Below are positions 3,444 through 54,887 of a stretch of DNA of 64,000 bases, in pieces. Position numbers and translations under genes: made by a program. This DNA is from Sedimentisphaerales bacterium (lineage in GTDB: Bacteria > Planctomycetota > Phycisphaerae > Sedimentisphaerales > UBA12454). Location: the NCBI GenBank assembly GCA_016930635.1, contig JAFGGI010000019.1, forward strand, positions 9,929 through 73,928. Direction: 5' to 3'. The notes below the pieces were generated by a model that was not told where the DNA came from, searched no databases, and saw only the letters and a program-made list of their open reading frames with translations. Position 1 is the first letter of the stretch. Each line of letters begins with the position of its first letter.

Positions 3444-3452
3444 ATCAGACTT

Positions 3453-7259: not shown

Positions 7260-7368
7260 TGTGTGGATAATATTCCTGAAAACTGTGCTTGAGATTTGAT
7301 TATAGTCATGATATTGTTTTTATCATTAAATGTTTATTTGTTGCTAAGTCTAGTCCAGTTTGTAGGTT

Positions 7369-7551: not shown

Positions 7552-7594
7552 AGTATTTGATTGTTTTCCAAGTTAATTCTTTTAGTTATCTTTT

Positions 7595-7717: not shown

Positions 7718-7732
7718 AAAATCAACCTGATT

Positions 7733-9199: not shown

Positions 9200-9211
9200 G
9201 ATTTACTTCCC

Positions 9212-9877: not shown

Positions 9878-9888
9878 ATTCACACCGT

Positions 9889-10320: not shown

Positions 10321-10335
10321 CTTCTATGCCCGTAA

Positions 10336-11022: not shown

Positions 11023-11042
11023 ATTAATACCTCCGATTAAAG

Positions 11043-12896: not shown

Positions 12897-12940
12897 TGCT
12901 TAAATTCCTTGCACAAAAAAAATTCTATATGATTTTATAA

Positions 12941-12957
12941 ATGCAAACGGCATGCCT
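12941..12957 (-). promoter_or_regulatory. sigma-54 (-24/-12) promoter
   Basis: The minus strand reads aGGCATGccgtTTGCAt, which matches TGGCAC-N5-TTGCW with correct GG/GC spacing. About 45 nt upstream of the kinase ATG. Confidence 0.75.
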
Positions 12958-13011
12958 AAAATAAACCGATTTTTTGGCTTGAAACAGCGATTGCCAGCGA
13001 TAAACCTTGTG

Positions 13012-13056
13012 AAATGCAAAGTGGGAAGAATGCAACCTTGCAAAATGCAAGGTGGG
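13012..13056. promoter_or_regulatory. putative enhancer (UAS) for the NtrC-type activator
   Basis: AAATGCAA(A/G)GTGGG repeated 31 nt apart (13012 and 13043), flanking the inverted repeat TGCAA-CC-TTGCA (13031-13042). 55-115 nt upstream of the sigma-54 promoter. Confidence 0.5.
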
Positions 13057-13086
13057 TTTGAGATTGAAAAGTAAAAGGGAATGTGA

Positions 13087-14448: not shown

Positions 14449-14701
14449 TTATATTCATAATCCGTGTTTGTTAAGGAAAATATTTTATCATAAACTTCTT
14501 ATATATCAATAACTAAGATTCTATTTCGCTTGGGCTTTTATCAGTCGCTAATCACAACCACAAAAACCGGTAAGATTCAAGTCCGTTATTCATGATTATC
14601 AAGAATATTCGGTTTACGAATATCTGCCGAAATCGGATTGACTTAACAAATGTTAGAATTCACATTTGCTGCAATTCTGGAACAAATCCTCGTATGCAAA
14701 A

Positions 14702-15874
14702 CTACGATCCAACAAGTTCGGAAGTATTGCTGAAATTCAGCATGTGCGTTGTTTCAGATTGGGTTTCCATTTCGCCTGCATAAACAACCGAACCGGGCAA
14801 GGCCTCATCGAACCGATTGCAGAAATGCTTCAATTCCTTAGTCATATCCGGTGAATATGTCATCGCTGCCTTGATTTCGACAGGTTTTAGCTGTCGATGC
14901 TGGCGTATGATCAGGTCAACTTCATGGCCTTTGGTGTCCCGATAAAAATACAGGTTCGGCATCTGTCCTGCATTGAGTCTGGCCTTGAGAGCCTCGACAA
15001 CAACCATATTCTCGAAAAGATTCCCCATAAGAGGATCACGTGCGATTTGTTTGGCTGTTTCTATTTCCAACAGCCATGCGACCAGTCCGGGCTCTGTGAA
15101 ATACAGCTTGGGTGTCTTGATGGCACGCTTGTTGGCGTTTTCGAACCATGGCGGCAGTCGGAAAATGATAAACGAGGACTCAAGCACCGAAAGCCACTCA
15201 TTCAACGATGAGCGCGATACCCCGACATCACCTGCCAATGAACTGATATTGATAACCTGTCCGACCCGGCCAGCCAGTACCCGCATAAACTTTTCAAATA
15301 ACAGTAAGTCACGAATTGCAGCAAGCTGACGGAGGTCTCTCTCGATATAGTTCTGGAAATACTCCGAGTAAAGCGTTGTCGGGCGAATATCCTCGTGATA
15401 AAGACGAGGCATGAAACCCTTGAACAATATTTCATCTCTTTCAATCTTTACTCCTGCACTCTTCAGTTCTGCCAATGACAGAGGCAGTAATCTAAGCAAG
15501 GCAGTACGGCCAGCAAGCGATTGGCTTACTGCCGCTGCAAGCCCCATCTGATGACTGCCGGTGAGGATATATTGGCCCCGCTTACTTGTCTGGTCAGCGT
15601 AAACCTGTATATAGGAGAGAAGTTCGGGGGCACGCTGGACTTCGTCAATAATAACCGGTGCGGGATATGCACTAAAAAAAGCCTTCGGATCGCTTTGGGC
15701 CAATTTACGGACATCCGGCAATTCCAGATTGGCATAGGCGTATCCCTGACAGTACCGTTTGGCAAGCGAAGTTTTTCCGGACTGCCTGGGGCCGGTAATA
15801 GTCACCACCGGATACTCTTTACATACCCGGCTAAGTTCAACCTCTATCGAGCGATTTATCCATTTTATAGCCAT
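14702..15874 (-). CDS. AAA ATPase with DUF4143-type C-terminal nuclease-like domain
   Basis: Walker A GPRQSGKTS, IIDEVQ, and C-terminal EVDLI...VEIK (PD-(D/E)xK-like). Paralogue of 37547-38779. Start set at the internal ATG (MAIKWINR). Confidence 0.7.
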   Translation of the reverse strand: MAIKWINRSIEVELSRVCKEYPVVTITGPRQSGKTSLAKRYCQGYAYANLELPDVRKLAQSDPKAFFSAYPAPVIIDEVQRAPELLSYIQVYADQTSKRGQYILTGSHQMGLAAAVSQSLAGRTALLRLLPLSLAELKSAGVKIERDEILFKGFMPRLYHEDIRPTTLYSEYFQNYIERDLRQLAAIRDLLLFEKFMRVLAGRVGQVINISSLAGDVGVSRSSLNEWLSVLESSFIIFRLPPWFENANKRAIKTPKLYFTEPGLVAWLLEIETAKQIARDPLMGNLFENMVVVEALKARLNAGQMPNLYFYRDTKGHEVDLIIRQHRQLKPVEIKAAMTYSPDMTKELKHFCNRFDEALPGSVVYAGEMETQSETTHMLNFSNTSELVGS

Positions 15875-16195
15875 AAGCTTATCCTTTGTATTGGGATATC
15901 TTTTTAATTTCTTATAAGGCCAATCATAGCATATATGGAACATATTGCAAGGTTTAGTTATCAATATATCCCACTATTGCCATTTCAGAAAAGTCTCATT
16001 TTTCTGCTATTATGAACAAAATGACGACAGATGTTAGTTTCTATCATTAGCTTATATCGGATATTTTGCTACCTTTACTTTGCAATTTATCCCATATTTC
16101 TTGTTTTCAGCTTAGGGGTTAACAGTCTGAAAATGATAGAATTTGAGAAATTGATGAGATTGTAAGGCGTTATATAGTAAGTGGTTATGTATTTG

Positions 16196-16236
16196 GGCTG
16201 TTAACCATTCGGTCGAAAACCAGGAAGTATGTTTTT
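16196..16236 (+). other. degenerate tRNA-Asn anticodon-arm/3'-half fragment
   Basis: GGCTGTTAACC is identical to tRNA positions 5381-5391 and lies at the same 34-nt offset from the start of the direct repeat. The following bases are only partly conserved (GGTCG retained). Confidence 0.55.
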
Positions 16237-16458
16237 GAGCTTTATATTGGGTCGCTAAACTAAGCGACCCAACTGTTAACAACAAAGGCCGCAGGATAAA
16301 ACCTGTGGCCTTTTTCTTTTAAGTGCCTTTCTATAAAGACTTAGCGAACATTCCCCTGTTGTTCCAAAATCTCACCTGTTCGAAACCGAAAATATAGCTG
16401 TTCGATCTGAACTCGTGGTTTCCGGATCGAACCTTGATTCTAACTCGAAACACTCTCT
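16237..16458 (+). repeat. direct repeat copy B
   Basis: Aligns with 5422-5642, including both hairpins. Confidence 0.9.
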
Positions 16459-19233: not shown

Positions 19234-22050
19234 TTAAGCACCTGCCAGCCAATTATCGCATACAATCTTCAAATCGGTAAAATCGATTCCTCCGTCACCA
19301 TTGCATTCTGCACCACCGCAGACGCCGCATTTTGTCTCAAGCCAATAGTTCGCAAATATAGCAAGATCGATCATATTCACTTTGCCATCAAAGTTGGCAT
19401 CTGCATCCAGGCTGTCCGGATAATAAATCCACAACTCAAGTCCGGACATATAATGATTTGCAGCGAAGAAAATTGCATCATCTGCAACAGTAAATCTTCC
19501 AGGGCCTGAACTGCCGTAGGAATCTATATCTGCAACTCTGACAGTTCCGGCTTCGGTTCCGTCACTTTTCCAAAACTCCCATCCATAGGTATCATCATAT
19601 GCCGTGAAGAATACCATATCGCCCCAGGCTATTAAATCCTGCGGTGAGCCTTCGCCGGGACTGATATCCTTGACAAGTACGGTACCCACATCTGTTCCAT
19701 CGCTTTTCCATAACTCTGTCTCGCCGCCTATCTCATCAGCAGCGAAGAATAACGTACCATTTACATCTGTAAGCGAATTAGCCCACCAGGTCGAAGAGTC
19801 AACGACCACAGTGTTAGGTTCGGTCCCATCGGTTTTCCATACCACATAATACGAGCCGTCATAAGCCACGAAGAAAATAATACCACCTGACTCTACCATA
19901 TTGCTCGGGTTGGACCCCCACGAGCCGGACATTAAATCTTTTACAATCACCGTACCGGCTGCGGTCCCATCGCTCTTCCATAACTCACTGCCATGTGTTC
20001 CATCATCAGCTTTAAAGTACAACGTATTATTAATATAGGCCAGAGCCTGCGGTGTCGAATCTCCTGATGGATTAATATCCTTGATCATTACCGTACCGGC
20101 TGAAGTACCATCACTTTTCCATAATTCCCTGCCGTGTGTATCATCGATAGCCGAGAAAAATAATACACTATTCCCATTAATAAATGATGAGGGCCAGGAG
20201 TGGTCTAAAGTATTGATATTCTTGACCATTGTTGTACCAGGAGCCGTTCCGTCACTTTTCCACAACTCATATCCATTAACATTATCATCGGCACCAAAAA
20301 ACAGCGTGCCGCCTACATTCGTCATACCATACGGCATAGAACTGCCTGTTAAATTGATATTTTTGACCATTGCAGTACCCCCTGCCGTTCCGTCGCTCTT
20401 CCACAGTTCTACTCCATTGGTGTCATCGGTAGCAGCAAAATATAATACCGAGCCGATTTTAGCCATATCAGTTTCTGTAAAAGCATCGCCGGCGGTATTA
20501 ATATCTTTAATCAGCACTGTGCCGGCATCTGTACCATCGCTTTTGTAAAGCTCTTTTCCATATATTCCATCATCAGCAACAAACATCAATGTATTATCTA
20601 CTTCTTTAAGATAGTTAGGCGATGCAGAATCAGTAGCTTCGGCAATATCTTTGACCATTACCGTACCGGCCAAGGTGCCGTCGCTCTTCCATAATTCTAT
20701 TCCATCAGGACCATTATCAGCTGCGAAGAAAATAGTCCCGCTGATATTAATAAGATTAGCCAGCGATGAACTGCCTGAAGGATTAATATTTTTTACCATT
20801 ACCGTTCCCAGAACCGTTCCATCACTTTCCCATAATTCTGCCCCATTGCTACCATCATCAGCTCTGCAATATAATAACCCTCCCATTTGGGCCAGACTTG
20901 ATGGTGATGAACTGCCCGGACCCGGATTAATATCATGGACTATTGCCGTTGCAATTGCTGTTCCGTCACTTTTCCAGAGTTCTGTTCCATTCGTTCCATT
21001 ATCAGATGCAAAATATACCGTCCCGCTGATATTGAGCAGACCTGATGGTGACGAACTGGCTGAGCCGGGATTAATATCCATAACCATTACCGTGCCGGCT
21101 GTAGTTCCATCACTTTTCCACAACTCGATCCCATTAGAACCATTATTAGCAGGAAACAAAATCTCAGTGCCTTTAACTGTTATATCAGAGATCGCCGAGC
21201 TGCCTGTGCCGGGATTAATATCCTTGACCAATACCGTACCGGCTGAGGTGCCGTCACTTTTCCACAATTCCCAGCCGTTCGGACCGTTATTGGCAATAAA
21301 TACCAGTGTGCCGTTAAAGTCTGTCAGGTCCGAAGCCATCGAAGGAGACCCCGGCGTAGGATTAATATCCTTGACCATTACAGTACCGGGTGCGGTTCCG
21401 TCACTCTTCCACAATTCCCTGGAAGCAACCGAACCATCATCGGCAACAAAAAACAACGTACTGCCTACTGCCGTCAGATGCATAGGCGACGAGCCGGACG
21501 TGCCGGGATTAATATCTGCAAGCATTCCTGTCCCTCCCGATGTGCCGTCACTTACCCATAACTCCTGGCCGGAGGTACCATCTGTAGCTGCAAAGTAGAG
21601 AAGAGAACCCATAGCGGTCAGGTAAGATATTTGCGCATTACCCGACGGATAGATATCCGTGACCATCACCGTACCCAATGCAGTTCCGTCGCTTTTCCAT
21701 AGTTCATAGCCGTTTACTCCATCGCTGTCAGCGGCAAAGAATAACGTACTGCCCACGTTCGTCAAATGACGAGGATTTGAACCTATAAATGAAGTAGTAT
21801 TAATATTCTTAACCATCACAGTACCCGCTTGGGTACCGTCACTTTTCCATAATTCTTCTCCATTTACATAATCATTAGCCACGAAAAACAGTGTGCCTCC
21901 TATATTGACACACTCTTTCGGTCCTGAATCATAAGAATCCAAATTAATGTCTTTTACCAGCCAAGGCGGTGTGCCCCATACACTACTGCCAATAACTAAC
22001 AGGAAAATTACAAAGAGAATATCTGTTTTAATTGAAAATCGAATACCCAT
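19234..22050 (-). CDS. secreted ELWxxDGT-repeat protein with dockerin-like C-terminus
   Basis: Signal peptide, 17 copies of the (E)LW(K)SDGTxxGT core at ~52-55 aa period, and a C-terminal DGKVNMIDLAIFANYW / GDGGIDFTDLKIVCDNWLAG module. Confidence 0.85.
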   Translation of the reverse strand: MGIRFSIKTDILFVIFLLVIGSSVWGTPPWLVKDINLDSYDSGPKECVNIGGTLFFVANDYVNGEELWKSDGTQAGTVMVKNINTTSFIGSNPRHLTNVGSTLFFAADSDGVNGYELWKSDGTALGTVMVTDIYPSGNAQISYLTAMGSLLYFAATDGTSGQELWVSDGTSGGTGMLADINPGTSGSSPMHLTAVGSTLFFVADDGSVASRELWKSDGTAPGTVMVKDINPTPGSPSMASDLTDFNGTLVFIANNGPNGWELWKSDGTSAGTVLVKDINPGTGSSAISDITVKGTEILFPANNGSNGIELWKSDGTTAGTVMVMDINPGSASSSPSGLLNISGTVYFASDNGTNGTELWKSDGTAIATAIVHDINPGPGSSSPSSLAQMGGLLYCRADDGSNGAELWESDGTVLGTVMVKNINPSGSSSLANLINISGTIFFAADNGPDGIELWKSDGTLAGTVMVKDIAEATDSASPNYLKEVDNTLMFVADDGIYGKELYKSDGTDAGTVLIKDINTAGDAFTETDMAKIGSVLYFAATDDTNGVELWKSDGTAGGTAMVKNINLTGSSMPYGMTNVGGTLFFGADDNVNGYELWKSDGTAPGTTMVKNINTLDHSWPSSFINGNSVLFFSAIDDTHGRELWKSDGTSAGTVMIKDINPSGDSTPQALAYINNTLYFKADDGTHGSELWKSDGTAAGTVIVKDLMSGSWGSNPSNMVESGGIIFFVAYDGSYYVVWKTDGTEPNTVVVDSSTWWANSLTDVNGTLFFAADEIGGETELWKSDGTDVGTVLVKDISPGEGSPQDLIAWGDMVFFTAYDDTYGWEFWKSDGTEAGTVRVADIDSYGSSGPGRFTVADDAIFFAANHYMSGLELWIYYPDSLDADANFDGKVNMIDLAIFANYWLETKCGVCGGAECNGDGGIDFTDLKIVCDNWLAGA

Positions 22051-41376: not shown

Positions 41377-41874
41377 ATGATAGCAGCGATTCAAGGATGG
41401 TTTATGGAAAACGGCAGTTACAACAAGCAAATGGAACAAGATATTCAAAACCTCACAGAAGATGTCCGGCAACAGAATAATCCATCTAAATCTCAAAAAC
41501 AAAAAACTCCTGCTCGCACTATGCCTACATTAGAGGAAATCACAGGGCACAAAAATCCAGAAACACATTCTCCTCTTCAAAGCAATAACAGTAAGGAGTT
41601 CGTTCATCAAATGGTTGAAAAGATCGGCCGTGCTCAACCGGAGGACCGCTCAAGTCAAATGCCTTCACTTAACCTGGCTGACAAGATACTGGCCCAGCAG
41701 AGAAAAATTGCGGCACTCAAGAGAAAATCGCCTCCGGAAAATAATAATCAGCCGTCCAGCAAACCTGAGCCTGTACACATAAACTCCATGCCGTCACCAC
41801 CGGCTTCACCTCAGCAGAAGATCATCGCTGATATTGTCGCAAAGCAAATCGTTGCTTTATCTGTGGAAAGATAA
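41377..41874 (+). CDS. hypothetical Pro/Gln/Ser-rich protein
   Basis: ORF only, low-complexity sequence. Confidence 0.35.
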   Translation: MIAAIQGWFMENGSYNKQMEQDIQNLTEDVRQQNNPSKSQKQKTPARTMPTLEEITGHKNPETHSPLQSNNSKEFVHQMVEKIGRAQPEDRSSQMPSLNLADKILAQQRKIAALKRKSPPENNNQPSSKPEPVHINSMPSPPASPQQKIIADIVAKQIVALSVER

Positions 41875-42095
41875 GCTGTCGTTAAGTCATCTCTTCTTAG
41901 CCAACTACAAAACGTCCGTATTTATTTTCAGGATTATTATCGGACAAAATCAGATTTTGCCTCAAACAATAACTGTTAATCAAAGACTGCTTCAGTCAGT
42001 TGTCATAAATGCCGATTCAACCGGCTGTAGCAGTCTATAGTTTATAAGTATTTTAAAGCCGATTGCCCGTTTTATTTATTTTGAAAGAGTAAATA

Positions 42096-42263
42096 ATGAG
42101 GACTGTAATTAAAAGATTTTTAAACGATGAGAAAGGCCTGGAGACTATCGAGTATGCTATTATTTCCGGCCTTATTACAGTTGGCGCAATAGCTACAATT
42201 GCCAGCGTTGGTACCTGGGTAAGTACAAGGTTTAACGAAGTACTGACTGCCCTTAATCCTTAA
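42096..42263 (+). CDS. flp: Flp-family type IVb pilin (55 aa), copy 1
   Basis: My translation is MRTVIKRFLNDEKGLETIEYAIISGLITVGAIATIASVGTWVSTRFNEVLTALNP, with the G/xxxxEY processing motif. Below the ORF-track cutoff. Confidence 0.9.
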   Translation: MRTVIKRFLNDEKGLETIEYAIISGLITVGAIATIASVGTWVSTRFNEVLTALNP

Positions 42264-42550
42264 TTCAACAACATCAACACTTTTATCCACTTAAAACACT
42301 ATTCATTTTATCGGGCTATCCACCATAGCCTGGCGAGTCACTGTAAGATTATTATCGGACAATTATCCGAATTTTAATTCAAATAATCATTAGTTAATAT
42401 CCGCTAAGTTCAGATACCTGCCACAAATGCCGATTCAATTGTCCATAAGGACCGCTGACAATATGTCTCTAATTGCAGCCGGTTTAGGTCCATAGTTTAA
42501 AGGTATTTTAAAACTGAACGTTCGTTTTATTGATTTTGAAAGGAAAAAAA

Positions 42551-42718
42551 ATGAGAACTGTTCTTAAAAGATTAGTCAACGATGAGAAGGGGCTGGAAAC
42601 TGTTGAGTATGCTATTATTGCCGGTCTTATTGTAGTCGGCGTCATAGCAACAATTGCCAGCATCGGTACATGGGTAAACACAAAGTTCGGTGAACTGTTA
42701 ACCGCACTTAGTTCTTAA
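42551..42718 (+). CDS. flp: Flp-family pilin (55 aa), copy 2
   Basis: MRTVLKRLVNDEKGLETVEYAIIAGLIVVG... Start set at the ATG after the GGAAAAAAAA region; the ORF-track extension is rejected. Confidence 0.9.
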   Translation: MRTVLKRLVNDEKGLETVEYAIIAGLIVVGVIATIASIGTWVNTKFGELLTALSS

Positions 42719-42737
42719 TCCTGGTGTACATAAACAG

Positions 42738-43304
42738 ATGTTTTCTAACGTTGAACAAATGACAACTGCAACTCAGTGGGGCATCGTTATTGGTGCCTCA
42801 CTGATTGCAGCCGTTACAGACTTGCGAACAAGACGCATCCCAAATATGCTCACCTTTCCGCTGCTTATAGCAGGATTGGTCTGGGCAGGCTGGGCAAACG
42901 GTCTCTGGGGCGTAGCTAATGCAGCCGGTGCATGTTTATGGCTTGCATTTCCGTTTTTGTTATTATTCATTTTCGCCGGCGGAGGTGCCGGTGACGCCAA
43001 GCTTATGGGAGCAATCGGAGTTTGGCTGGGCATTTCTGAAGGAACCATCGTATTAGTATGCGTTATGATAGCGGGCATTATCATATCTTTATGCAAAGCA
43101 GCAATACATCAAAAACTTAAGCTGGTCCTTACGAATGTATTTATATCCGTATACACATCTATTATTTATGCCCTCAGTCATAATACAAAACCGTTAGTTG
43201 TTAATCAGAACAGCTGTGCCGTCAGCACCGACACACTGACAATTCCATACGGTATAGCAATTTTTGCAGGCGTTTGCATAGCAGGAAGTTTGAGGTTGAT
43301 ATGA
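42738..43304 (+). CDS. cpaA: prepilin peptidase (A24 family, CpaA/TadV)
   Basis: TDLRTRRIPN and GGGAGDAKLMGAIG aspartyl motifs. Confidence 0.85.
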   Translation: MFSNVEQMTTATQWGIVIGASLIAAVTDLRTRRIPNMLTFPLLIAGLVWAGWANGLWGVANAAGACLWLAFPFLLLFIFAGGGAGDAKLMGAIGVWLGISEGTIVLVCVMIAGIIISLCKAAIHQKLKLVLTNVFISVYTSIIYALSHNTKPLVVNQNSCAVSTDTLTIPYGIAIFAGVCIAGSLRLI

Positions 43305-43717
43305 ACATAAAATTGATAAAACAGACATGGAAAAAAGGTGCAGCAGCAGTTGAAGCGGCTATATTGTTTCCTCTGCTTTTACTGTTGACCTTTGCCATCA
43401 TTGAGTATGGCTGGCTATTTCTAAATGCCAATCTTGTAACTAATGCTGCTCGACACGGAGCACGTATTGCAGTCCTTCCGAATTCCACCAGCACTGATGT
43501 AACAAGCGCTATTTCGGATTTGATGAGCACTGCCAATATCACCGGCTACAGCGTAACAATTACTCCATCCGATCTTGCATCATTAACCGTCGGTCAGATT
43601 GTTACCGTGCAGATTACCGTGCCGTGGCAGCAAATAGCAATAATAAACAGTCCTTTTTTGCCAATGCCGACAACCGACTTGCAGGCTTCTGTCTCAATGG
43701 CAAAAGAAGGGCCGTAA
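43301..43717 (+). CDS. tadE: TadE-like pseudopilin
   Basis: KKGAAAVEAAILFPLLLLLTFAIIEYG TadE motif. ATGA overlap with cpaA. Confidence 0.8.
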   Translation: MNIKLIKQTWKKGAAAVEAAILFPLLLLLTFAIIEYGWLFLNANLVTNAARHGARIAVLPNSTSTDVTSAISDLMSTANITGYSVTITPSDLASLTVGQIVTVQITVPWQQIAIINSPFLPMPTTDLQASVSMAKEGP

Positions 43718-43779
43718 CGGCAACAAATTAATGTGGTTAATTTAATATACTTAATTTTTGAATAGGCAGGTGAGATAAA

Positions 43780-44757
43780 ATGAAATGGTCTATTGTATTT
43801 CTGGTAGCGTTAGGATTATTCGCAGCAATTTCAGCATCAGTATTAGTCGGTGCACTACGCGGACTTCCCGCCAGTGCCAGCGCCAGCGATTCATCCTCAA
43901 AAGATGAGGTGATCGTCGCTGCAAAACCACTGATCGCAATGTCTGCAATTGGTCCAAATGATATAAGCATACAAAATGTTTCGAAGGATAATCTGCCGGA
44001 AGGATACTTCTCCGAGCCCGTAGAGGTTATCGGCAGAATCCTCGCTGTATCCGTCGCACAGGATCAGATCTTAACACAGACCTGTCTTGTAAAAGAGGGA
44101 GACAGGGCCAGATTAGCAGCGGCTATCCCACACGGAATGCGTGCTATTACCATGAATTTTCCGAATACCTCCACTACTGGCGGTCTTTTGTATCCCGGCT
44201 GCATTGTCGATATCCTGGCATCTTTTCGCCTGCCGTCGAAAAATCGGGGCAAAGGCAAGGCAATATCTACAACTTTGCTTCAGGGTATTCAGGTGCTCGC
44301 TGTGGAAAACAGCTCTATAGTATCCAAAGATGATGAAGGCGAAAAAGATAAGGAAGAAGCATCTTATTCTGGCCCGGGAGGTAAAAAACTTGTAGTCACT
44401 TTAATGGTAAACTCAAGACAGGCCGAGGCCCTGCAGTTGGCCCGGGAGTACGGCACTGTATCAATTGTAATGAGAAATCCTCTTGATAAGTCACCTGTTA
44501 ACAGTGACTCAACTGTATTGAACGAAGGAAAACTGGCAAAGTCCGGCTCTGCGCTGACTCCTGCAGGCTTAACCCAGGACGGGAAAATAGACCTGTTGAG
44601 AAAAGTAGGCGAACATTCAGCACAAAATAATCTGCTGGACGAATTAGACGAAAACTCAGAACATCTCCCGCCAGAGATGTGGAATGTAACTGTGATTCGC
44701 GGCAAAGAAGTTGAAGTGCAAAAGGTTGATTCTCCAGATGAGGAAGATGACTATTAA
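43780..44757 (+). CDS. cpaB: Flp pilus assembly protein CpaB
   Basis: N-terminal TM, SAF-like region VIVAAKPL, RcpC/CpaB pattern. Confidence 0.8.
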   Translation: MKWSIVFLVALGLFAAISASVLVGALRGLPASASASDSSSKDEVIVAAKPLIAMSAIGPNDISIQNVSKDNLPEGYFSEPVEVIGRILAVSVAQDQILTQTCLVKEGDRARLAAAIPHGMRAITMNFPNTSTTGGLLYPGCIVDILASFRLPSKNRGKGKAISTTLLQGIQVLAVENSSIVSKDDEGEKDKEEASYSGPGGKKLVVTLMVNSRQAEALQLAREYGTVSIVMRNPLDKSPVNSDSTVLNEGKLAKSGSALTPAGLTQDGKIDLLRKVGEHSAQNNLLDELDENSEHLPPEMWNVTVIRGKEVEVQKVDSPDEEDDY

Positions 44758-44825
44758 AATGATAATACGTAAATAGACGCCTAATAAACTTTAGTCGTTT
44801 ATTGAGGTAAGTTGGAGATAAAAAA

Positions 44826-45230
44826 ATGGAAAATTATGAAATTATTCGTGAGTTTCTGGATTATTTGAAATTTGAAAAATACTTCTCTCAGCATACAGCA
44901 AAGGGTTATCATGCTGACCTCAAGCAGTTCTGTCGGTATATAAACAGCCGGCAGGATCACTGCTCATACAACCTCTCAGGCAATGAGCAGTCAGATTCCG
45001 CAACTGTGCAGCCAGAAATAAAGATAGAACAACTTCTTCTCTCGGCAACACCTGAGACCATCCGTACTTATATGGCTGCTTTAAATGACAAGCAATATTC
45101 GCAATCAACTATTGCCCGGAAGCTGGCAACATTGAGAAGCTTTTATAAATTTCTAGTCAAACGCGGCTACATAAGCAACAACCCTGTTACAGCGATAAGA
45201 ACACCCAGGCAGGACAAAAACTTGAAAAAT
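44826..45230 (+). pseudogene. XerC/XerD-type tyrosine recombinase N-terminal (core-binding/SAM-like) domain fragment; catalytic domain absent
   Basis: FLDYLKFEKYFSQHTAKGYHADLKQF...TIARKLATLRSFYKFLVKRGYISNNPV matches the core-binding domain. Has its own GGAG SD, and no stop before the secretin ORF. Confidence 0.7.
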
Positions 45231-45306
45231 ATAATAGCAATAGGAACGCCTGAGCAGGATAAGAACCTGAAAAACAAAAAAGATTATTATTTGGTGAATA
45301 GTACTA

Positions 45307-46811
45307 TGCTAAAAAATAAATTACTATTAAAGACCAAACGGATTGGTGCCCGGCAAATAGTCAGCGCTTTTATTTGCCTGTTTATGACTTGTTTACTTGT
45401 ATATGCCGGCAACGTGAACCTGGCTGATGAGGTCACACCGCTGGGTACTATAGTAATAAATGCCGGGGAATCAAAAATTATAAGAACACAGTTCCCGACA
45501 GTACGTGTGGCAGTTACAAATCCTAAAACTGTCGACGTGAAAGTGCTAACGCCCTACCAGCTTATGCTGCAGGGACTGGAGGTTGGGGAAACAGATGTTA
45601 TTGTCTGGTCCAAAGATGAGGGAGATCTCCAGCAATGGAAAGTCCTTGTTGTAATGAACATATCAACATACGCAGATAAGCTGAAGGAACTGTTCCCCAA
45701 ATGTTCTTTAGAGGTAAGCCAATCGGGCGGTACTCTTATAGTAAGAGGGTTGTTGAGAAGTGCAGACCAGGTCAGACAGCTTCACGATTACCTTGATAAG
45801 TCTGAAGTTACATATATCGATATGACAAGTGTTGCCGGCACTCAGCAGGTTCAGTTAGATGTGAAGGTTGCTGAGGTAAGCCGAACAATATGGCGGTCTT
45901 TCGGTGTAAATGCCCTTTATACCGGTGAAAATCACTTCGGGGGATCCCGTGTAGGTTCATCCAGCGGAGGAGCCCTGGTACCGTCAATTGGGATAGGTCC
46001 CCCGGAAGATACAGTTATTGGGACAAAGGCACCTACAAGTTATGCAATTAACTCAGATATCGTTGCAAGTTCTCTGGTCACTATTTTTGCCGGTATTCCC
46101 CGTTATAACTTTGAAGTATTTATTCAGACACTGGCTGAGAATCAATACTTAAAAATGCTGGCTAATCCGACTTTAGTTGCATTAAGCGGCGAAGAATCCA
46201 GCTTCCTTGCCGGCGGAGAGTTCCCGATACCTGTCGTCCAGGGTGGAAGCGGAGGAAGCTCTATTTCTGTTGAATACCGGGAATATGGTGTTCGCTTGAA
46301 TTTCAGACCAATTGTCCTCGGTGACGGCACTATCCGCCTGTTCGTTGCTCCTGAAGTAAGCGAACTAACCGATGTTGGAGTTATCATTGAAGGTTACAGC
46401 GTACCTTCATTATTGACAAGAAAAGTTGAAACAACTTTAGAACTTAAAAGCGGACAAACCTTCGCTATGGCAGGTTTAATAAAAGATGATATTGAGTCGA
46501 TAAGGGATCGTGTGCCTGGTCTTTCAAACATTCCTGTCCTGGGTACACTATTTCGTTCTACACGTTATAAGAAGAAAGAAACCGAACTTGTCGTACTCGT
46601 AACCGTTTCTTTAGTGGAACCTATTTCTTCATCAAATGTTAGACCTCTGCCGGGCTTTATGCATGCTGAGCCGAATGACTGGGATTTTTATATTGACGGC
46701 TATACTGAAAGTCAGGGGCCGCCAAATGTCCATCCTGAAGATGCCCAAAAGCTGAAAGAGCTTGGCATAGATGATCTCCTGGGGCCTGGTGCATGGGAAT
46801 CCTATAAATAG
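45307..46811 (+). CDS. cpaC: Tad secretin (CpaC/RcpA)
   Basis: Internal ATG followed by a signal-like MLKNKLLLKTKRIGARQIVSAFICLFMTCLLVYAG. BON-like N-domains and secretin C-domain (SGQTFAMAGL...VPGLSNIPVLGTLFRS). Confidence 0.85.
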
Positions 46812-46835
46812 AGTCGTAGAGATAAATAAGGACAA

Positions 46836-48008
46836 ATGATTACACAGACGCACAACATATTATTGCTGACAAAGGACAATTCCGCTGTAGATATGCTGCA
46901 TTCGGTTCTGGAAAAAAGCCAGAATATAGTATTGTCCGGCATATGTCAGGAATTTTCTGAACTTACTTCATATCTAAAGGATATTAAGTTTCAGACGATT
47001 ATTGTTGATATCGACCCGGATCCGCTGAGAATTCTGACCAAGGTCGGAACGATTACAGCTATGTATCCGGAACTGCGCATAGTAGTCATTTCAAACAGTT
47101 TCAGCAATGAACTGATCCTGCACGCAATGCACGCCGGGGCAAGACATTATCTGCTTAAAAGCTCTATTGAAAAAGAGCTTGAAAAAGTGCTGGGACAGAT
47201 ACTCTCTGAAGGCCGTAAAAGTGAGTCAAAACAAGGCTCAATAATATCTGTCATCCCTGTCAGCGGGGGCTGCGGCGCAACGACAGTAGCAGTCAATCTT
47301 GCCAACGAAATACGAATAGCCTCATCTGAAGAAATATTATTAGTTGATATGGACAGCTATTATGCAACAGTTGCATTGCATCTTGGAATATCCACCCAGT
47401 ACGGCATCTCAGATATCCTGTCTCATGAAGATATGATCGATGAAAACTTATTGAAATCCTGCTCATATAACTATATGACCGATTTTCATATATTGACAAA
47501 CAAGGCGATTATAAGTTCGCCTGAACTGAATCCGCCCAGGTATGACAACCTTACCTCTATTCTGGAAGTATGTAAAAATGCTTACAAATATACAGTAATT
47601 GACACTCCTTCCCGTCTGGATAAGGATGTTCTGGAAAAAATACTTGACCTAAGCGACAATATACTGGTCGTATTCCATGCCACCGTAAAAGATTTGAAGC
47701 TGGCGCAGTACCTTATATCATCTGTTCAGTTTCTTACCGCGCCGAATAAGATAATCCCCCTGGCAAATAACTTTGACAAACGAAATTCACTGATAAAACT
47801 GGAAGACTGTAAACAGGCATTGGGAATAGAGCATATCCACAGCATATGCAGCGAACCTCAAAAGGCGCTTAATGCTTTTAATCTCAGCCAGCCTCTTGCA
47901 CAATTCGCAGCCAAGTCAAAAATGCGCCAGGATCTGCAGCAACTTGCTTTAGCTCTAATAGGCGTTGAAGAACCAAATAAAAAAGAAACTATTTTGGGAA
48001 CTAAATAA
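46836..48008 (+). CDS. tadZ: TadZ/CpaE (receiver-like N domain + ParA/MinD-like domain)
   Basis: Receiver-like N-terminus. P-loop region reads VSGGCGATTVAVNLA, deviating from KGGxGKT. Confidence 0.75.
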   Translation: MITQTHNILLLTKDNSAVDMLHSVLEKSQNIVLSGICQEFSELTSYLKDIKFQTIIVDIDPDPLRILTKVGTITAMYPELRIVVISNSFSNELILHAMHAGARHYLLKSSIEKELEKVLGQILSEGRKSESKQGSIISVIPVSGGCGATTVAVNLANEIRIASSEEILLVDMDSYYATVALHLGISTQYGISDILSHEDMIDENLLKSCSYNYMTDFHILTNKAIISSPELNPPRYDNLTSILEVCKNAYKYTVIDTPSRLDKDVLEKILDLSDNILVVFHATVKDLKLAQYLISSVQFLTAPNKIIPLANNFDKRNSLIKLEDCKQALGIEHIHSICSEPQKALNAFNLSQPLAQFAAKSKMRQDLQQLALALIGVEEPNKKETILGTK

Positions 48009-49342
48009 TGGAACTAAAAGAAGGTCAAAACAGAAAATTGACCCTGCAGAGGTTAAAAGCAGAGGTTCATCGGAAGCTGCTTGAAGTATTAAATCTGAAC
48101 GAAGCCAGGAGAGTTTCTATAGAGCAGCTAAAGGAAGAATGCTTCAGCAAAGTCAGCGCTCTGCTGGACGAACAGCAGTTCCCGATATCAGGGCCGGAAA
48201 AACAACAACTGCTGCACGACATTATGGACGAGGTCTTCGGATTTGGACCTTTAGGTACACTTTTGAGAGATCCTTCCGTTAGTGATATTTTAGTGAACGG
48301 CCCGTTCCAGATATACGTTGAACGAAGCGGCCTGCTCGAACTTACAGACTTATCCTTTGCCGACGATGACCATTTGATGCGGGTGATTCAGCGAATCGGA
48401 ACTACCGTAGGCCGACGAATTGACGAAAGCACTCCAATGCTCGACGCTCGTCTGCTGGACGGCTCCCGTGTAAACGCAATTATACCCCCCCTTGCGATAG
48501 ACGGACCTGCGTTGAGTATCAGACGTTTCAGCGGAATCCCTATTGATATCAAGAAACTAATCGAAATAGAATCTATAGCTGAAGAGATGGCCTTTTTCAT
48601 CGAGGCCTGTGTCCAGTGCAAAATGAATGTCCTGATATCAGGAGGAACCGGTACTGGTAAAACTACCATACTCAACGCCCTGTCAAGGTGGATACCTCAG
48701 GGAGAACGTGTGGTAACAATAGAAGATGCAGCGGAATTAAAGCTGCAGCGGGATCACGTCGTACGTCTTGAGACAAGACCCCCTAATGTAGAAGGCGAAG
48801 GAACCATCACCCAGAGGGATCTGCTGCGAAATACCTTGAGAATGAGGCCTGACAGAATCATCATCGGTGAGGTTCGCGGTGCAGAAGCTATCGATATGCT
48901 CCAGGCAATGAATACCGGACACGAAGGCTCAATGACCACGGTACATGCCAACAGTCCGCGTGATGCTATGAGAAGACTGGAAAATATGGCCAGTCTGGCA
49001 GGAGTAAATTTCCCGCTGAAGGCAATTCGCGAGCAGATAAGCTCTGCGATAAACATTTTAGTCCATTTGCAGAGAATGACCGGCGGCCAGAGAAAAGTCG
49101 TCAGTGTTGCTGAAATAACAGGAATGGAAATGGATACGATCTGCCTTCACGATATCTTCCGTTTCGTCCAGGATGGAGTCGATGATGAAGGCAAAGCCAA
49201 AGGACATTTCGAAGCGTGCGGCGTCTGCCCTCAGATATTAAACAGGCTAAAGGAAAAAGGTATGAAAATGCCGCCCGATATGTTCCAGCACAAGATTATC
49301 GGAAAAAGTGTAAAAAAGAAAGAAGCAGTAAAAGTTCGATAA
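48008..49342 (+). CDS. cpaF: Tad pilus ATPase CpaF/TadA
   Basis: Walker A GGTGTGKTT, Asp and His boxes, IIGEVRG. Confidence 0.92.
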   Translation: MELKEGQNRKLTLQRLKAEVHRKLLEVLNLNEARRVSIEQLKEECFSKVSALLDEQQFPISGPEKQQLLHDIMDEVFGFGPLGTLLRDPSVSDILVNGPFQIYVERSGLLELTDLSFADDDHLMRVIQRIGTTVGRRIDESTPMLDARLLDGSRVNAIIPPLAIDGPALSIRRFSGIPIDIKKLIEIESIAEEMAFFIEACVQCKMNVLISGGTGTGKTTILNALSRWIPQGERVVTIEDAAELKLQRDHVVRLETRPPNVEGEGTITQRDLLRNTLRMRPDRIIIGEVRGAEAIDMLQAMNTGHEGSMTTVHANSPRDAMRRLENMASLAGVNFPLKAIREQISSAINILVHLQRMTGGQRKVVSVAEITGMEMDTICLHDIFRFVQDGVDDEGKAKGHFEACGVCPQILNRLKEKGMKMPPDMFQHKIIGKSVKKKEAVKVR

Positions 49343-49366
49343 TAACCAAAGGATACGGTAAATATT

Positions 49367-50350
49367 ATGAGTCCTGACAAATTAGTAAATGTCGTTATTA
49401 TGTTGCTCGTATTCGGGTTGATTTTCTCTGTTTGGGGAATCTGTATCTGCCTATGGATAGTACAATATCTCCGCAAGGCCCGTTCTGCCCGTGCAAAACT
49501 GGGGCTGGATGACAAGCAGGAAGGCGAAGACGAATCAAGCATGCTGAGATTATGGTTCGACTCATACGAAGAGAAAAAACCGACTAAAGCAGTAAAGAAA
49601 AAATCTCTGGCTGTATACCTGGATAAAATGATAGCCCAAACCGGCTGGCATGCTTCGGTCAGGACAATTATATTAAGAATTTTGGCAGCAATCGGTTTGA
49701 CCTCTGTAATAGCATATTTTGTAAGCGGCGATATTGTTGTAGGATTTGGTGCCGCTGCAGTAGCTATATTTATTGCATGGACTTTTATACAAAAAAGAAT
49801 TGCCAAACAAACCGCCCTGTTTGAAAGGCAATTGGCTGATGCATTAGGTATATCCTCCCGTGCACTTCGTGCGGGTCATCCGCTGGTTGAAACTTTCCAG
49901 TTAATTGCTGACGAGATAGGCGAGCCTTTAGGGGATATCTTTGCCAGAATATGCCAGGAACAGTCTCTGGGCCTTGGCTTAAAGGACTCTATACGAAATG
50001 TAGCAGAGACTACCTATAACAACGAACTGAAACTTTTTGCAACTGCGATCTCTATACAGTTTCAAAGCGGAGGCAATCTGGCCGACCTGATGGACAGGTT
50101 GGCATCTGTTATCCGGGCCAGAATGAGATTAAATCGGCGTATTCGTGTTATAACGGCACAGACTCAATTCAGCAAAAAAGTGCTGATCGCACTGCCTATT
50201 ATGCTTTTCTTCCTGCTCAATGTGGTAAATGCCGAATATATGCAGCCGTTATATAACACTGTGGCCGGCAAAGCAATGCTGATAATCGGAAGTGCCAGCG
50301 TATTAATGGGAACATGGATGATGAACCGTCTTTCTGCAATAAAGCTTTAG
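49367..50350 (+). CDS. tadB: TadB inner-membrane platform protein
   Basis: T2SSF-type domain and position in the locus. Confidence 0.8.
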   Translation: MSPDKLVNVVIMLLVFGLIFSVWGICICLWIVQYLRKARSARAKLGLDDKQEGEDESSMLRLWFDSYEEKKPTKAVKKKSLAVYLDKMIAQTGWHASVRTIILRILAAIGLTSVIAYFVSGDIVVGFGAAAVAIFIAWTFIQKRIAKQTALFERQLADALGISSRALRAGHPLVETFQLIADEIGEPLGDIFARICQEQSLGLGLKDSIRNVAETTYNNELKLFATAISIQFQSGGNLADLMDRLASVIRARMRLNRRIRVITAQTQFSKKVLIALPIMLFFLLNVVNAEYMQPLYNTVAGKAMLIIGSASVLMGTWMMNRLSAIKL

Positions 50351-50366
50351 AATAAGAAAGTATAAG

Positions 50367-51296
50367 ATGAATATTTCAAGCTCTGAAATTATAATTCCGG
50401 TACTTACATTTTTATCCGTTGTAACCCTCGGCGGATTAATTATGTTCATCCAGGCCAATAGAAAGAAATCATTGGCAATGAAAATGCTGCAGCATGAAGA
50501 TGCTCTTCCAGGACAAACCGGTGAAGGTGATGTGAAAAAGAAAGATGCTCTTCTGGAAATTTTCGAAAAAATAGGAAATTTCGTCTCCCACGGCCAGACC
50601 ACAACAACTCTTTCAGAACAGCTTATACGTGCCGGATATCATAGTAAATCCGCCTCGGCGATGTACACAGGTGTCAAAATGCTGCTGTTCTTTGTCGGAA
50701 TGGTAATGACCGCATGTATGGTTATAAATATCAACATTAATCTTATAACAAAAATGACTCTCATTTTTGTCGGCGGTGTCGTCTTCTTCTTTTTGCCTAA
50801 TGCCAAAATAATGGTGCAGTTCAAAAAACGCAGCCGTGAGATCAATCGATACCTGCCAGAGGCAATAGACCTGCTTGAAATATGCGTCTCTTCCGGAATA
50901 GGCCTGGATATGGCCTGGAACATCGTTTCCAACGAAATAAAACAGGTCTGCCCTATTCTGGCCGGTGCGATGGATATCAGCAATTTTGAAATGCATTTAG
51001 GTGCAAGCAGAGTAACCGCATTAAAACACATGGCAGCACGTACCGGCGTCGATGCTCTGTCTTCACTGGCAGCTATACTTGTTCAAACCGAAAGGTTCGG
51101 CACAAGTATCGGCTCGACACTGCAGGTATTTGCCACGTCAATGAGAGAAGAAAGAAATTTCGCCGTGGAAGAAAATGCGGAAAAAATGGCGGTAAAGCTG
51201 ATTATTCCGATGGTATTGTTTATTTTCCCGGCAGCCGTTATCACCGTAGTAGGACCGGCTGCTATTGTTATAGCAAAAGTAATGATGACACAATAA
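50367..51296 (+). CDS. tadC: TadC inner-membrane platform protein
   Basis: T2SSF-type domain and position in the locus. Confidence 0.8.
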   Translation: MNISSSEIIIPVLTFLSVVTLGGLIMFIQANRKKSLAMKMLQHEDALPGQTGEGDVKKKDALLEIFEKIGNFVSHGQTTTTLSEQLIRAGYHSKSASAMYTGVKMLLFFVGMVMTACMVINININLITKMTLIFVGGVVFFFLPNAKIMVQFKKRSREINRYLPEAIDLLEICVSSGIGLDMAWNIVSNEIKQVCPILAGAMDISNFEMHLGASRVTALKHMAARTGVDALSSLAAILVQTERFGTSIGSTLQVFATSMREERNFAVEENAEKMAVKLIIPMVLFIFPAAVITVVGPAAIVIAKVMMTQ

Positions 51297-54394: not shown

Positions 54395-54661
54395 CAAACA
54401 AATCTTTCGAAATACCCGCCAAAAACGGCTTGGCCTATGCAATAAAAACAGCTAAAGGCTGAATTGCAACCTCTTATGTATAAAGCGTTTACGGAAAATT
54501 TTCTACTGAAGTTTTTTTAAGATTTTTCCGGTGTATCCTCAGAATATTTACTATGCTCTATATAGAAGAAGGGTAGTTTTTAAGAGAGGGTTTACAAGGT
54601 AATAGGCAATACATCGTTTAAGCGTTTTTAACCCTGAACTCAAATTTGAAAGGGGAAGAAA

Positions 54662-54829
54662 ATGAAAGCTTTTCTGAAAAACCTGTTCAACGAGGAAAGA
54701 GGCTTGGAAACAGTCGAATATGCTATTATCGCCGGCCTGATTGTAGTTGGCGTTATAGCAACGATTGCAAGCATCGGCACATGGGTCAACACAAAGTTTG
54801 GTGAATTACTCACAGCTCTTAGCTCTTAG
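54662..54829 (+). CDS. flp: Flp-family pilin (55 aa), copy 3
   Basis: My translation is MKAFLKNLFNEERGLETVEYAIIAGLIVVGVIATIASIGTWVNTKFGELLTALSS. Below the ORF-track cutoff. Confidence 0.9.
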   Translation: MKAFLKNLFNEERGLETVEYAIIAGLIVVGVIATIASIGTWVNTKFGELLTALSS

Positions 54830-54887
54830 TTCCGGCGAATATTAGCAATTCCAAAACTAATATCCGACAGGGCTAACAGTTCTCTTT

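What the first reader, a model, noticed from the sequence alone, without database searches (positions are those of the whole stretch)
44826..45309. XerC/XerD-type core-binding domain without catalytic domain, in frame with the Tad secretin
Seen in sequence: the ORF 44826-46811 begins, after a good GGAG SD, with a complete tyrosine-recombinase N-terminal (SAM-like) domain: FLDYLKFEKYFSQHTAKGYHADLKQF...ARKLATLRSFYKFLVKRGYISNNPV. There is no catalytic domain. Instead an imperfect 30-nt tandem duplication occurs (45201-45230 and 45246-45275; 22 of 30 nt identical; encoding TPRQDKNLKN and TPEQDKNLKN). The frame then runs, without a stop, into an internal ATG (45307) followed by a signal-peptide-like segment and a full CpaC secretin. 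Inference: there are three options. It could be the scar of a recombinase-mediated rearrangement inside the tad locus. It could be a stand-alone DNA-binding domain recruited as a tad regulator and translated by readthrough into the secretin frame. Or it could be a genuine fusion acting as a signal anchor. All three are unusual for Tad loci.
Basis: partly seen in the sequence, partly recalled or inferred. Interest (0 to 1): 0.6.

Follow-up and report, generated by a model that had tools for sequence, protein, structure and literature searches.

The report
xerC gene fragment captured before Tad secretin
A roughly 500-base copy of the start of the housekeeping recombinase gene xerC sits between two pilus genes of an uncultured Sedimentisphaerales bacterium and reads in frame into the pilus secretin, so it is most likely a one-off gene-fragment capture that annotation software mislabels as an "integrase", not a new pilus regulator.

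Summary
ORF 44826-46811 (661 aa) starts with a XerC-type core-binding domain, has no catalytic domain, and runs without a stop into a complete CpaC/RcpA secretin.

- The internal ATG is at 45306, not 45307.
- The repeat is a 45-nt tandem unit (45186-45230 and 45231-45275, 32/45 identical), not 30 nt.

What it is:
- The closest secretins (69-75% identical) all begin at the residue matching M161.
- Their cpaB-cpaC spacer is 42-61 nt, against 548 nt here. Their conserved leader, TTATTTGGTGAAT…ATG, is retained.
- The extra DNA is xerC's own 5' leader (about 40 nt, including the GGAG) plus codons 1-133.
- A full-length XerC (MBN1787904.1) is annotated 500 accession numbers from this ORF (MBN1787404.1), so it is almost certainly in the same MAG.
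- No other protein joins the two parts. This holds for 1.84 billion cluster representatives and for 80 related genomes, where xerC is always full length and never near tad genes.

Evolution: the fragment changes about twice as fast at amino-acid sites as true XerC, but it has no stop codons and no frameshifts. I cannot decide between neutral drift and weak constraint.

Verdict: a captured gene fragment forming a chimeric ORF. Interest is low to moderate.

The parts
42096..43717 (+). Upstream tad genes: two Flp pilins (42096-42263, 42551-42718), prepilin peptidase CpaA/TadV (42738-43304), TadE-like protein (43274-43717)
   Evidence: Pfam Peptidase_A24 and TadE. Same gene order as relatives L002 and L005.
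43780..44757 (+). cpaB/rcpC (325 aa), native gene upstream of the insert
   Evidence: Pfam RcpC and SAF. Syntenic with relatives.
44758..44785 (+). Left remnant of the native cpaB-cpaC spacer. The left junction lies somewhere in 44758-44786.
   Evidence: Homology to the native xerC leader starts at about 44786, 'AACTTT'. The exact junction is not resolvable.
44786..44825 (+). xerC-derived 5' leader with GGAG Shine-Dalgarno
   Evidence: About 88% identical to the leader upstream of native xerC in L011 and L013. Also aligns with L008.
44826..45224 (+). xerC-derived codons 1-133: complete core-binding (SAM-like) domain, no catalytic domain
   Evidence: PF02899 E 2.8e-18; TIGR02224 profile positions 2-107 of 295. 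68-70% aa identity without gaps to full-length XerC P0371. 75% nt identity to L011 xerC.
45186..45230 (+). Tandem unit 1 (VTAIRTPRQDKNLKN): end of the xerC-derived part
   Evidence: 32/45 nt identical to unit 2. Of the 13 differences, 12 are transitions, 8 are synonymous and 5 non-synonymous.
45231..45275 (+). Tandem unit 2 (IIAIGTPEQDKNLKN): second copy of xerC codons ~121-133 plus the junction 'AAAAAC'
   Evidence: Aligns 28/36 to L011 xerC codons IAIRTPKQEKRL; 0 of 500 shuffles reach the score.
45270..45305 (+). Native cpaC leader (AAAAAC…TTATTTGGTGAATAGTACT) retained in front of the secretin start
   Evidence: Aligns with the spacers of L002, L004, L005 and L007. The TTATTTGGTGAAT..TAC.ATG block is conserved.
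45306..46811 (+). Native cpaC/rcpA secretin ORF (501 aa)
   Evidence: P0002, P0003, P0004, P0005 and P0007 (63-75% identical) start at the equivalent residue. Pfam T2SS-T3SS_pil_N and Secretin.
45306..45407 (+). Signal-peptide-like segment MLKNKLLLKTKRIGARQIVSAFICLFMTCLLVYA. It is N-terminal in the native ORF and internal (aa 161-194) in the 661-aa ORF.
   Evidence: Basic n-region, then the most hydrophobic 15-aa stretch of the ORF, then V-Y-A. Judged by inspection; no signal-peptide predictor was available.
44826..46811 (+). Chimeric 661-aa ORF as annotated in GenBank (MBN1787404.1, 'site-specific integrase')
46836..51296 (+). Downstream tad genes: tadZ/cpaE (46836-48008), tadA/cpaF (48008-49342), tadB (49367-50350), tadC (50367-51296)
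   Evidence: Pfam AAA_31, Response_reg and TadZ_N for the first gene. Same order and Pfam families as in L001, L002 and L007.

Best explanation
About 440-455 bp from the 5' end of a xerC gene (its leader of about 40 nt with the GGAG ribosome-binding site, plus codons 1-133) was copied into the short cpaB-cpaC spacer of the tad operon. This happened in the lineage leading to this Sedimentisphaerales MAG. The right-hand junction lies at about 'CTG|AAAAAC' (45266-45275). A 45-nt piece spanning that junction was then duplicated in tandem.

The copy ended in frame and no stop has arisen, so gene callers join it to cpaC as one 661-aa 'integrase'. The secretin keeps its own conserved leader, start codon (45306) and signal peptide, and is presumably still made from there.

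The fragment cannot recombine DNA because it has no catalytic domain. It is transcribed with the operon. It is probably also translated from 44826, acting as an upstream reading frame or N-terminal extension that signal peptidase could remove together with the signal peptide.

The anatomy, the uniqueness and the xerC origin are shown. How the segment was copied (illegitimate recombination or template switching, from the genome's own xerC lineage or from a related organism), whether it is translated, and the lack of a dedicated function are inferred.
For: Native secretin start is kept.
- The closest secretins start at the residue equivalent to M161.
- Their cpaB-cpaC spacer is 42-61 nt, against 548 nt here.
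- Their leader TTATTTGGTGAAT..ATG is retained in front of 45306.

The insert is xerC-derived.
- HMM hits cover only the core-binding domain.
- Aa 1-137 align without gaps to full-length XerC P0371 at 68%.
- The 40 nt upstream match the native xerC leader of L011 and L013 at about 88%.
- Unit 2 also aligns to xerC codons (28/36; 0 of 500 shuffles reach the score).

An intact xerC exists elsewhere. P0371 is MBN1787904.1 and the chimeric ORF is MBN1787404.1.

The arrangement is unique.
- Only the query itself carries PF02899 plus Secretin among the 120 listed hits.
- No hit among 1.84e9 representatives spans the junction.
- In 80 related genomes xerC is full length (326-363 aa) or cut by a contig end, with no tad gene within 5 kb.

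Constraint is relaxed.
- dN is 0.19-0.20 at dS about 1, against 0.06-0.12 for true ortholog pairs.
- There are 6 private changes at 59 clade-invariant residues; controls show 0-3.
- The ratio of non-degenerate to degenerate change is 0.45, against about 0.2 in true orthologs.
- An open frame is not improbable under neutral drift: P about 0.08-0.29 for K of 0.10-0.15.

The sequence is real: an independent assembly is identical.
Against: The fragment is not a fresh copy. It is only 68-70% identical to the XerC of apparently the same MAG. At the ~20 positions where P0371 and P0372 differ, it matches P0371 at 8 and P0372 at 6 (my count). The copy is therefore either old or foreign.

If it is old, some things are unexpected for a dead remnant:
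- It has no frameshift and no stop in 480 nt.
- The differences between the two tandem units are biased towards synonymous changes (8 synonymous, 5 non-synonymous; P about 0.009).

Some selection may therefore act. It could select for an open frame, to avoid polarity on cpaC-tadZABC. It could instead select for a harmless, foldable extension.

The mechanism of insertion is not identified. Translation starts were not measured.
Confidence: 0.6

Rival explanations
1. The N-terminal core-binding domain is a functional part of the locus. It would be translated from 44826 as a cytoplasmic DNA-binding module. It would be either fused to the secretin precursor or left as a membrane-anchored piece after signal-peptidase cleavage at VYA|GN, and it would be kept by selection.
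For: - The frame is open for 160 codons with no gap relative to XerC.
- One of the strongest SD motifs in the window lies upstream.
- 53 of 59 clade-invariant residues are retained.
- The two tandem units differ mostly at synonymous sites (pS 0.83, pN 0.14, P about 0.009).
- The ratio of non-degenerate to degenerate change is 0.45, which is below 1.
- The fragment is not a recent copy of the resident xerC.
Against: - It is a singleton. There is no second example among the 120 best secretin hits, 1.84e9 representatives or 80 related genomes.
- The native start, leader and signal peptide of cpaC are intact, so the fusion is not needed.
- The fragment evolves about twice as fast as real XerC and has lost clade-invariant residues: H19Y, E22Q, C27G, K93Q.
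- The numbers also fit about 9-13% neutral drift.
- The synonymous bias rests on only 13 differences.
Confidence: 0.2
2. The fragment is the scar of a site-specific, recombinase-mediated event. A mobile element with its own xerC-like integrase would have integrated between cpaB and cpaC and later been largely deleted, leaving the 5' end of its integrase gene.
For: - Truncated integrase genes are common at the edges of decayed islands (general knowledge).
- A short imperfect direct repeat flanks the insert: ATAGACGCCT at 44773-44782 and ATAGGAACGCCT at 45240-45251 (read).
- The closest metagenomic N-domain (L008) is also truncated, next to a tRNA-Arg.
Against: - The fragment groups with housekeeping XerC. 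That gene sits in a conserved chromosomal context (DAHP synthase or radical SAM, small ORF, xerC) in L009, L010 and L011.
- It carries that gene's own conserved leader.
- No other element-derived DNA remains. The insert is xerC-derived from end to end.
- The flanking repeat is weak (10 of 12 with an indel), and its right copy lies inside xerC-derived unit 2.
- The only recombinase in the window is a serine recombinase 39 kb away.
Confidence: 0.08
3. The arrangement is an assembly or binning artefact. Reads from a xerC locus would have been wrongly joined into the tad contig.
For: The source is a metagenome-assembled genome. The fragment is only about 70% identical to the XerC annotated in the same bin.
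Against: - Both flanks are syntenic tad DNA, so two independent false joins would be needed.
- There is no shared k-mer-length repeat. Nothing else in the window matches the unit within 3 mismatches.
- An independent Logan assembly of the run gives the identical 6.5-kb contig across both junctions.
Confidence: 0.05

Closest known systems
XerC (TIGR02224), housekeeping tyrosine recombinase of Sedimentisphaerales/Phycisphaerae; closest full-length protein is P0371 = MBN1787904.1
   Same: Residues 1-133 are a complete core-binding (Phage_int_SAM_1) domain. It is 68-70% identical to P0371 with the same length. The lineage-specific variable loop and the gene's own 5' leader are both recognisable.
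   Different: - The whole catalytic domain (PF00589, about 190 aa) is missing.
- The conserved L-P-K-F linker is replaced by L-K-N-I.
- It is not in the xerC chromosomal context.
- It evolves about twice as fast at non-synonymous sites.
CpaC/RcpA secretin of Tad (Flp) pili
   Same: From M161 onward it is an ordinary member. It has a signal-peptide-like start, T2SS-T3SS_pil_N and Secretin domains, and 63-75% identity to P0002, P0003, P0004, P0005 and P0007. It sits between cpaB and tadZ.
   Different: The annotated ORF carries a 160-aa in-frame upstream extension, which makes the signal peptide internal. No other listed secretin has this.
Chimeric ORFs made by capture of a gene fragment (pseudogene remnants read through into a neighbour). 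This is a general class, named here from my own knowledge.
   Same: - The event is confined to one lineage.
- The donor gene is intact elsewhere.
- The recipient gene keeps its own start.
- Constraint on the fragment is relaxed.
   Different: The fragment has stayed open and free of frameshifts despite about 30% amino-acid divergence from the closest XerC. Its tandem units differ mostly synonymously. A completely dead remnant of that age would usually show frameshifts.

Membership tests
XerC/XerD tyrosine recombinase | N-terminal core-binding (SAM-like) domain | tested here: met
   PF02899 E 2.8e-18; TIGR02224 profile positions 2-107.
XerC/XerD tyrosine recombinase | C-terminal catalytic domain (PF00589) with the R-K-H-R-H/W-Y active site | tested here: not met
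   No PF00589 hit in the ORF. No tblastn match to XerC catalytic parts anywhere in the window.
XerC/XerD tyrosine recombinase | Whole-protein score above the NCBIfam equivalog cut-off | tested here: not met
   TIGR02224 scores 77.5-81.8 bits against a cut-off of 335.15.
XerC/XerD tyrosine recombinase | Conserved chromosomal neighbourhood in this clade (DAHP synthase or radical SAM, small ORF, xerC) | tested here: not met
   The neighbourhood is seen in L009, L010 and L011. None of those genes is in the window.
CpaC/RcpA Tad secretin | Secretin domain plus T2SS-T3SS_pil_N domain | tested here: met
   PF00263 E 6e-40; PF13629 E 4e-17.
CpaC/RcpA Tad secretin | Position in a tad operon between cpaB/rcpC and tadZ/cpaE | tested here: met
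CpaC/RcpA Tad secretin | Cleavable signal peptide at the N-terminus of the precursor | tested here: inconclusive
   It is N-terminal if translation starts at 45306, as in all relatives. It is internal (aa 161-194) in the 661-aa ORF. It was judged by hydropathy and inspection only.
   Nothing was found beyond the query: among the 120 best secretin hits, among 1.84e9 representatives, where no hit spans the junction, or in 80 related genomes.
Remnant of an integrated mobile element | Flanking att-type direct repeats and other element DNA | tested here: inconclusive
   There is only a weak 10/12 repeat with an indel (44773-44782 and 45240-45251). No non-xerC insert DNA is present.

The most novel reading that the evidence does not exclude
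The captured XerC core-binding domain has been kept by selection as a new protein part. It would be made in fixed proportion with the secretin precursor. It would stay on the cytoplasmic face of the inner membrane, anchored by the uncleaved or cleaved-off signal sequence. It would act there as a DNA- or XerC/XerD-interacting module, for example tying chromosome-dimer resolution or a regulatory site to Tad pilus assembly. The open, unshifted frame, the synonymous-biased divergence of the two tandem units and a dN/dS-like ratio below 1 are compatible with this but do not show it.
Probability: 0.1. Interest if true: 0.6.

Novelty: new member of a known kind. Interest (0 to 1): 0.25.

Why it matters
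The practical value is for annotation. GenBank names the Tad secretin of this MAG a "site-specific integrase" (MBN1787404.1). That would mislead counts of mobile elements and of secretion systems. The correct model is a 501-aa CpaC starting at 45306, preceded by a xerC fragment.

Biologically, it is a clean and datable example of a housekeeping gene's 5' end (leader, ribosome-binding site and one folded domain) being copied into an operon and read through into an exported protein. If the weak signs of constraint hold up in more genomes, it would be a natural case of domain capture in front of a signal peptide. As it stands it is a single event in one uncultured lineage, with no evidence of function.

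Tried and rejected
- Other copies of the 30-nt unit, or inverted or direct repeats that could mark a recombination site: none in the window.
- A catalytic domain or the xerC neighbourhood elsewhere in the window: none.
- Unit 2 as native cpaB-cpaC spacer that resembles xerC by chance (a microhomology model): rejected. It aligns to xerC codons of L011 better than unit 1 does, 28/36 with 0 of 500 shuffles reaching the score.
- Unit 2 as homologue of the downstream XerC segment LLETPPxDNWL, as MAFFT suggested: rejected by the same alignment.
- A family of stand-alone N-domain proteins suggested by the many short hits: rejected. Those proteins are cut by contig ends or have frameshifted tails. That search listed no protein longer than 277 aa, whereas a longer query returned hundreds of full-length XerC.
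- Scans of genome and metagenome contigs with the fragment's own peptides: no relative found. This organism is therefore not in those collections.
- DNA of the resident xerC (P0371): not on record. The decisive dS between the fragment and the resident gene could not be computed.
- Rfam scan of 41500-47500: no hit.
- Promoter and terminator scan: nothing on the + strand inside the insert.
- Invariant versus variable column test for constraint: not significant (Fisher P 0.15).
- Literature searches for stand-alone core-binding domains and for Tad pili in Sedimentisphaerales: nothing relevant.
Full report
**Source and observation**

The window comes from a Sedimentisphaerales (Planctomycetota) metagenome-assembled genome. 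The ORF in question is GenBank MBN1787404.1, named "site-specific integrase", on an 88.9-kb contig. ORF 44826-46811 is open for 661 codons.

Pfam and NCBIfam place three things in it:
- A XerC-type core-binding domain at residues ~8-114: PF02899, E 2.8e-18; TIGR02224 profile positions 2-107 of 295, 82 bits against a cut-off of 335.
- A T2SS-T3SS_pil_N domain at residues 208-275.
- A Secretin domain at residues 436-597.

There is no catalytic PF00589 domain in the ORF. tblastn with XerC catalytic parts finds none anywhere in the 64-kb window.

Comparable local near-repeats occur at only three places in the window outside one repetitive gene.

Two corrections are needed:
- The internal start is ATG 45306-45308, not 45307.
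- The repeat is a 45-nt tandem unit: 45186-45230 encodes VTAIRTPRQDKNLKN and 45231-45275 encodes IIAIGTPEQDKNLKN. The units share 32/45 nt.

An independent Logan assembly of run SRR13394437 reproduces 6523 nt across both junctions without a mismatch.

**Where the secretin really starts**

The closest secretins (P0002 to P0005 and P0007; 63-75% identical; 491-512 aa) all begin at the residue equivalent to M161. For example, MSKINSALKTKWIG… aligns with MLKNKLLLKTKRIG….

In their loci the gap from the cpaB stop to the cpaC ATG is 42-61 nt. Here it is 548 nt. The block just upstream of their ATG, TTATTTGGTGAAT..TAC.ATG, is conserved and is present in front of 45306.

The window therefore holds an ordinary tad operon: flp, flp, cpaA, tadE, cpaB, cpaC, tadZ, tadA, tadB, tadC. 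It has about 490-500 extra bases in one spacer, and the native secretin gene (45306-46811, 501 aa) is complete.

**What the extra DNA is**

- Residues 1-137 align without a gap to XerC of related Phycisphaerae.
- The 40 nt upstream of 44826, including the GGAG, are about 88% identical to the leader in front of native xerC in the two closest loci, L011 and L013. That leader is itself almost invariant among orthologs.
- XerC homology ends at residue ~133. The conserved K-L-P-K-F becomes N-L-K-N-I.
- The second tandem unit is also xerC-derived. It aligns 28/36 to the codons for IAIRTPKQEKRL of L011, and 0 of 500 shuffles reach that score.
- Both units end in AAAAA[T/C], which belongs to the native cpaC leader. 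So the 45-nt duplication happened after the xerC/leader junction was formed.
- The left junction lies between 44758 and 44786 and cannot be placed more exactly.

Native xerC in this clade sits behind DAHP synthase or a radical SAM gene and a small ORF. None of these genes is in the window.

**Is there an intact xerC, and is the fusion found elsewhere?**

A search with a chimeric query (fragment plus a catalytic domain) returned full-length XerC proteins. The closest to the fragment is P0371 (328 aa, 68% over 137 aa, no gaps).

P0371 is MBN1787904.1, 500 accession numbers from the chimeric ORF. It is therefore almost certainly from the same MAG, on a 52-kb contig.

The fusion itself is unique:
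- Among the 120 best secretin hits, only the query carries PF02899.
- A query spanning the junction (aa 90-260) was run against 1.84 billion cluster representatives. It found proteins matching either the XerC part or the secretin part, and none matching both.
- In 80 species-representative genomes of the clade, xerC is full length (326-363 aa) or cut by a contig end. No tad gene lies within 5 kb of it and no N-terminal-only copy exists.

The many short "XerC" proteins are cut by contig ends or end in frameshifted tails. They are not a family of stand-alone domains.

**How the fragment has evolved**

| Measure | Fragment | True XerC orthologs |
|---|---|---|
| dN at dS about 1.0 | 0.19-0.20 (versus L011, L013) | 0.06-0.12 |
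| Private changes at 59 residues invariant in 31 clade members | 6 (H19Y, E22Q, C27G, A60T, K93Q, K128R) | 0-3 |
| Non-degenerate sites changed, at sites conserved in eight close orthologs | 12.7% | 6-9% (the six more distant orthologs L008, L016, L017, L020, L022, L023) |
| Degenerate sites changed, same set | 28% | 23-45% (same six orthologs) |
| Ratio of the two | 0.45 | about 0.2 |

Constraint is therefore relaxed but the ratio is not 1.

The figures fit about 9-13% neutral drift after release from a functional gene. Under such drift the chance of keeping 160 codons free of stops is roughly 0.1-0.3.

Three things argue against pure decay:
- There is no frameshift in 480 nt.
- The two tandem units differ at 13 positions, of which 12 are transitions, 8 are synonymous and 5 non-synonymous. 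P is about 0.009 under random placement.
- The fragment is not a recent copy of P0371. At the ~20 positions where P0371 and P0372 differ, it matches P0371 at 8 and P0372 at 6 (my count). In a neighbour-joining tree it forms a long branch at the base of the clade.

So the copy is either old and weakly constrained, or it came recently from an unsampled sister lineage. The DNA of P0371 would settle this, but it was not retrievable.

A modest, non-specific selection is plausible. An early stop would leave about 500 nt untranslated inside the operon and could be polar on cpaC-tadZABC. A misfolding extension on a secretin precursor could be harmful. This part is inference.

**Most likely working**

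The operon transcript carries the fragment. Ribosomes can start at 44826, where the GGAG with 8-nt spacing is among the best SD motifs in the window. They can also start at the native 45306.
- Starting at 45306 gives the normal precursor.
- Starting at 44826 gives a 661-aa precursor in which the signal sequence is internal. It could still insert into the membrane and be cut after VYA, giving the same mature secretin and leaving a cytoplasmic core-binding domain on a membrane anchor.

Recombinase activity is excluded because the catalytic domain is absent. A dedicated function for the domain is possible but unsupported. I put it at about 0.2, and at 0.1 for the specific novel reading in this report.

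**Rivals**

Scar of an integrated element with its own integrase. This is unlikely. The insert is xerC-derived from end to end, it carries the housekeeping gene's leader, and it has only a weak flanking repeat (ATAGACGCCT and ATAGGAACGCCT).

Mis-assembly. This is unlikely. Two false joins would be needed, no long shared repeat exists, and a second assembler gives the same contig.

**Comparison and verdict**

The downstream part is an ordinary CpaC/RcpA secretin. The upstream part is a XerC core-binding domain that fails the membership tests for a recombinase on catalytic domain, whole-protein score and genomic context.

The whole belongs to the known class of chimeric ORFs created by capture of a gene fragment. 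It is a new, single example and not a new kind of system. The main practical consequence is that the GenBank product name is wrong.

Interest 0.25.

Noticed in passing
window 5352-16450: A 10.8-kb segment is flanked by direct repeats of about 214-230 nt (5422-5635 and 16237-16450, 89% identical). The first repeat starts at the 3' end of tRNA-Asn (5352-5425). A large serine recombinase (5922-7259; Resolvase + Recombinase + Zn_ribbon_recom) lies just inside. It looks like an integrated island. The cargo includes TrkH/TrkA, a histidine kinase, two response regulators (one of them a sigma-54 activator) and a DUF4143 ATPase.
   Followed up: partly
L008 184-739: The closest metagenomic relative of the fragment from the first N-domain search (P0121, 60% identical) is itself a truncated xerC. 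Homology stops after ...DNWLGA (about codon 157), and 15 nt later a tRNA-Arg(CCT) gene begins on the opposite strand (665-739). The contig is only 937 nt, so rearrangement and chimera cannot be told apart.
   Followed up: partly
L011 3414-3457, L013 and L012 upstream of xerC; window 44786-44825: The ~44-nt leader between the small upstream ORF and xerC (AACTTTCGTCGTTTATTGAGGCGATTTGGAGATAAAAAAATG) is almost invariant among orthologs whose synonymous sites differ by dS of about 0.8. That suggests a conserved regulatory or translational element in front of xerC in this clade.
   Followed up: no
proteins P0228 (854 aa), P0234 (818 aa), P0243, P0255, P0268: These proteins contain 4-6 separate stretches that each match the ARKLATLRSFYKFLV region of the core-binding domain. 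They may be arrays of repeated SAM-like domains. They turned up in the junction search and were not examined.
   Followed up: no
window 19234-22050 (- strand): A 938-aa ORF is built from 16 tandem repeats of 138-150 nt (46-50 aa; one spacing of 270 nt) at 60-76% identity. It has a C-terminal dockerin type I domain and a weak DUF4082 match.
   Followed up: no
window 42033-42719 and 54599-54830: There are three Flp pilin paralogues: 42096-42263, 42551-42718, and a third about 12 kb downstream ending near 54830. The first two have repeated upstream regions (repeat families D3 and D7). The second and third encode nearly identical mature parts.
   Followed up: partly
proteins P0125, P0126, P0128, P0130, P0136, P0137, P0143, P0147: Several xerC genes of Planctomycetota MAGs, some on contigs of 46 kb to 1 Mb, end in frameshifted tails at different positions. 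In L009 the gene is called as two ORFs (3360-4166 and 4207-4446). These are probably indel errors in the assemblies and not biology.
   Followed up: no
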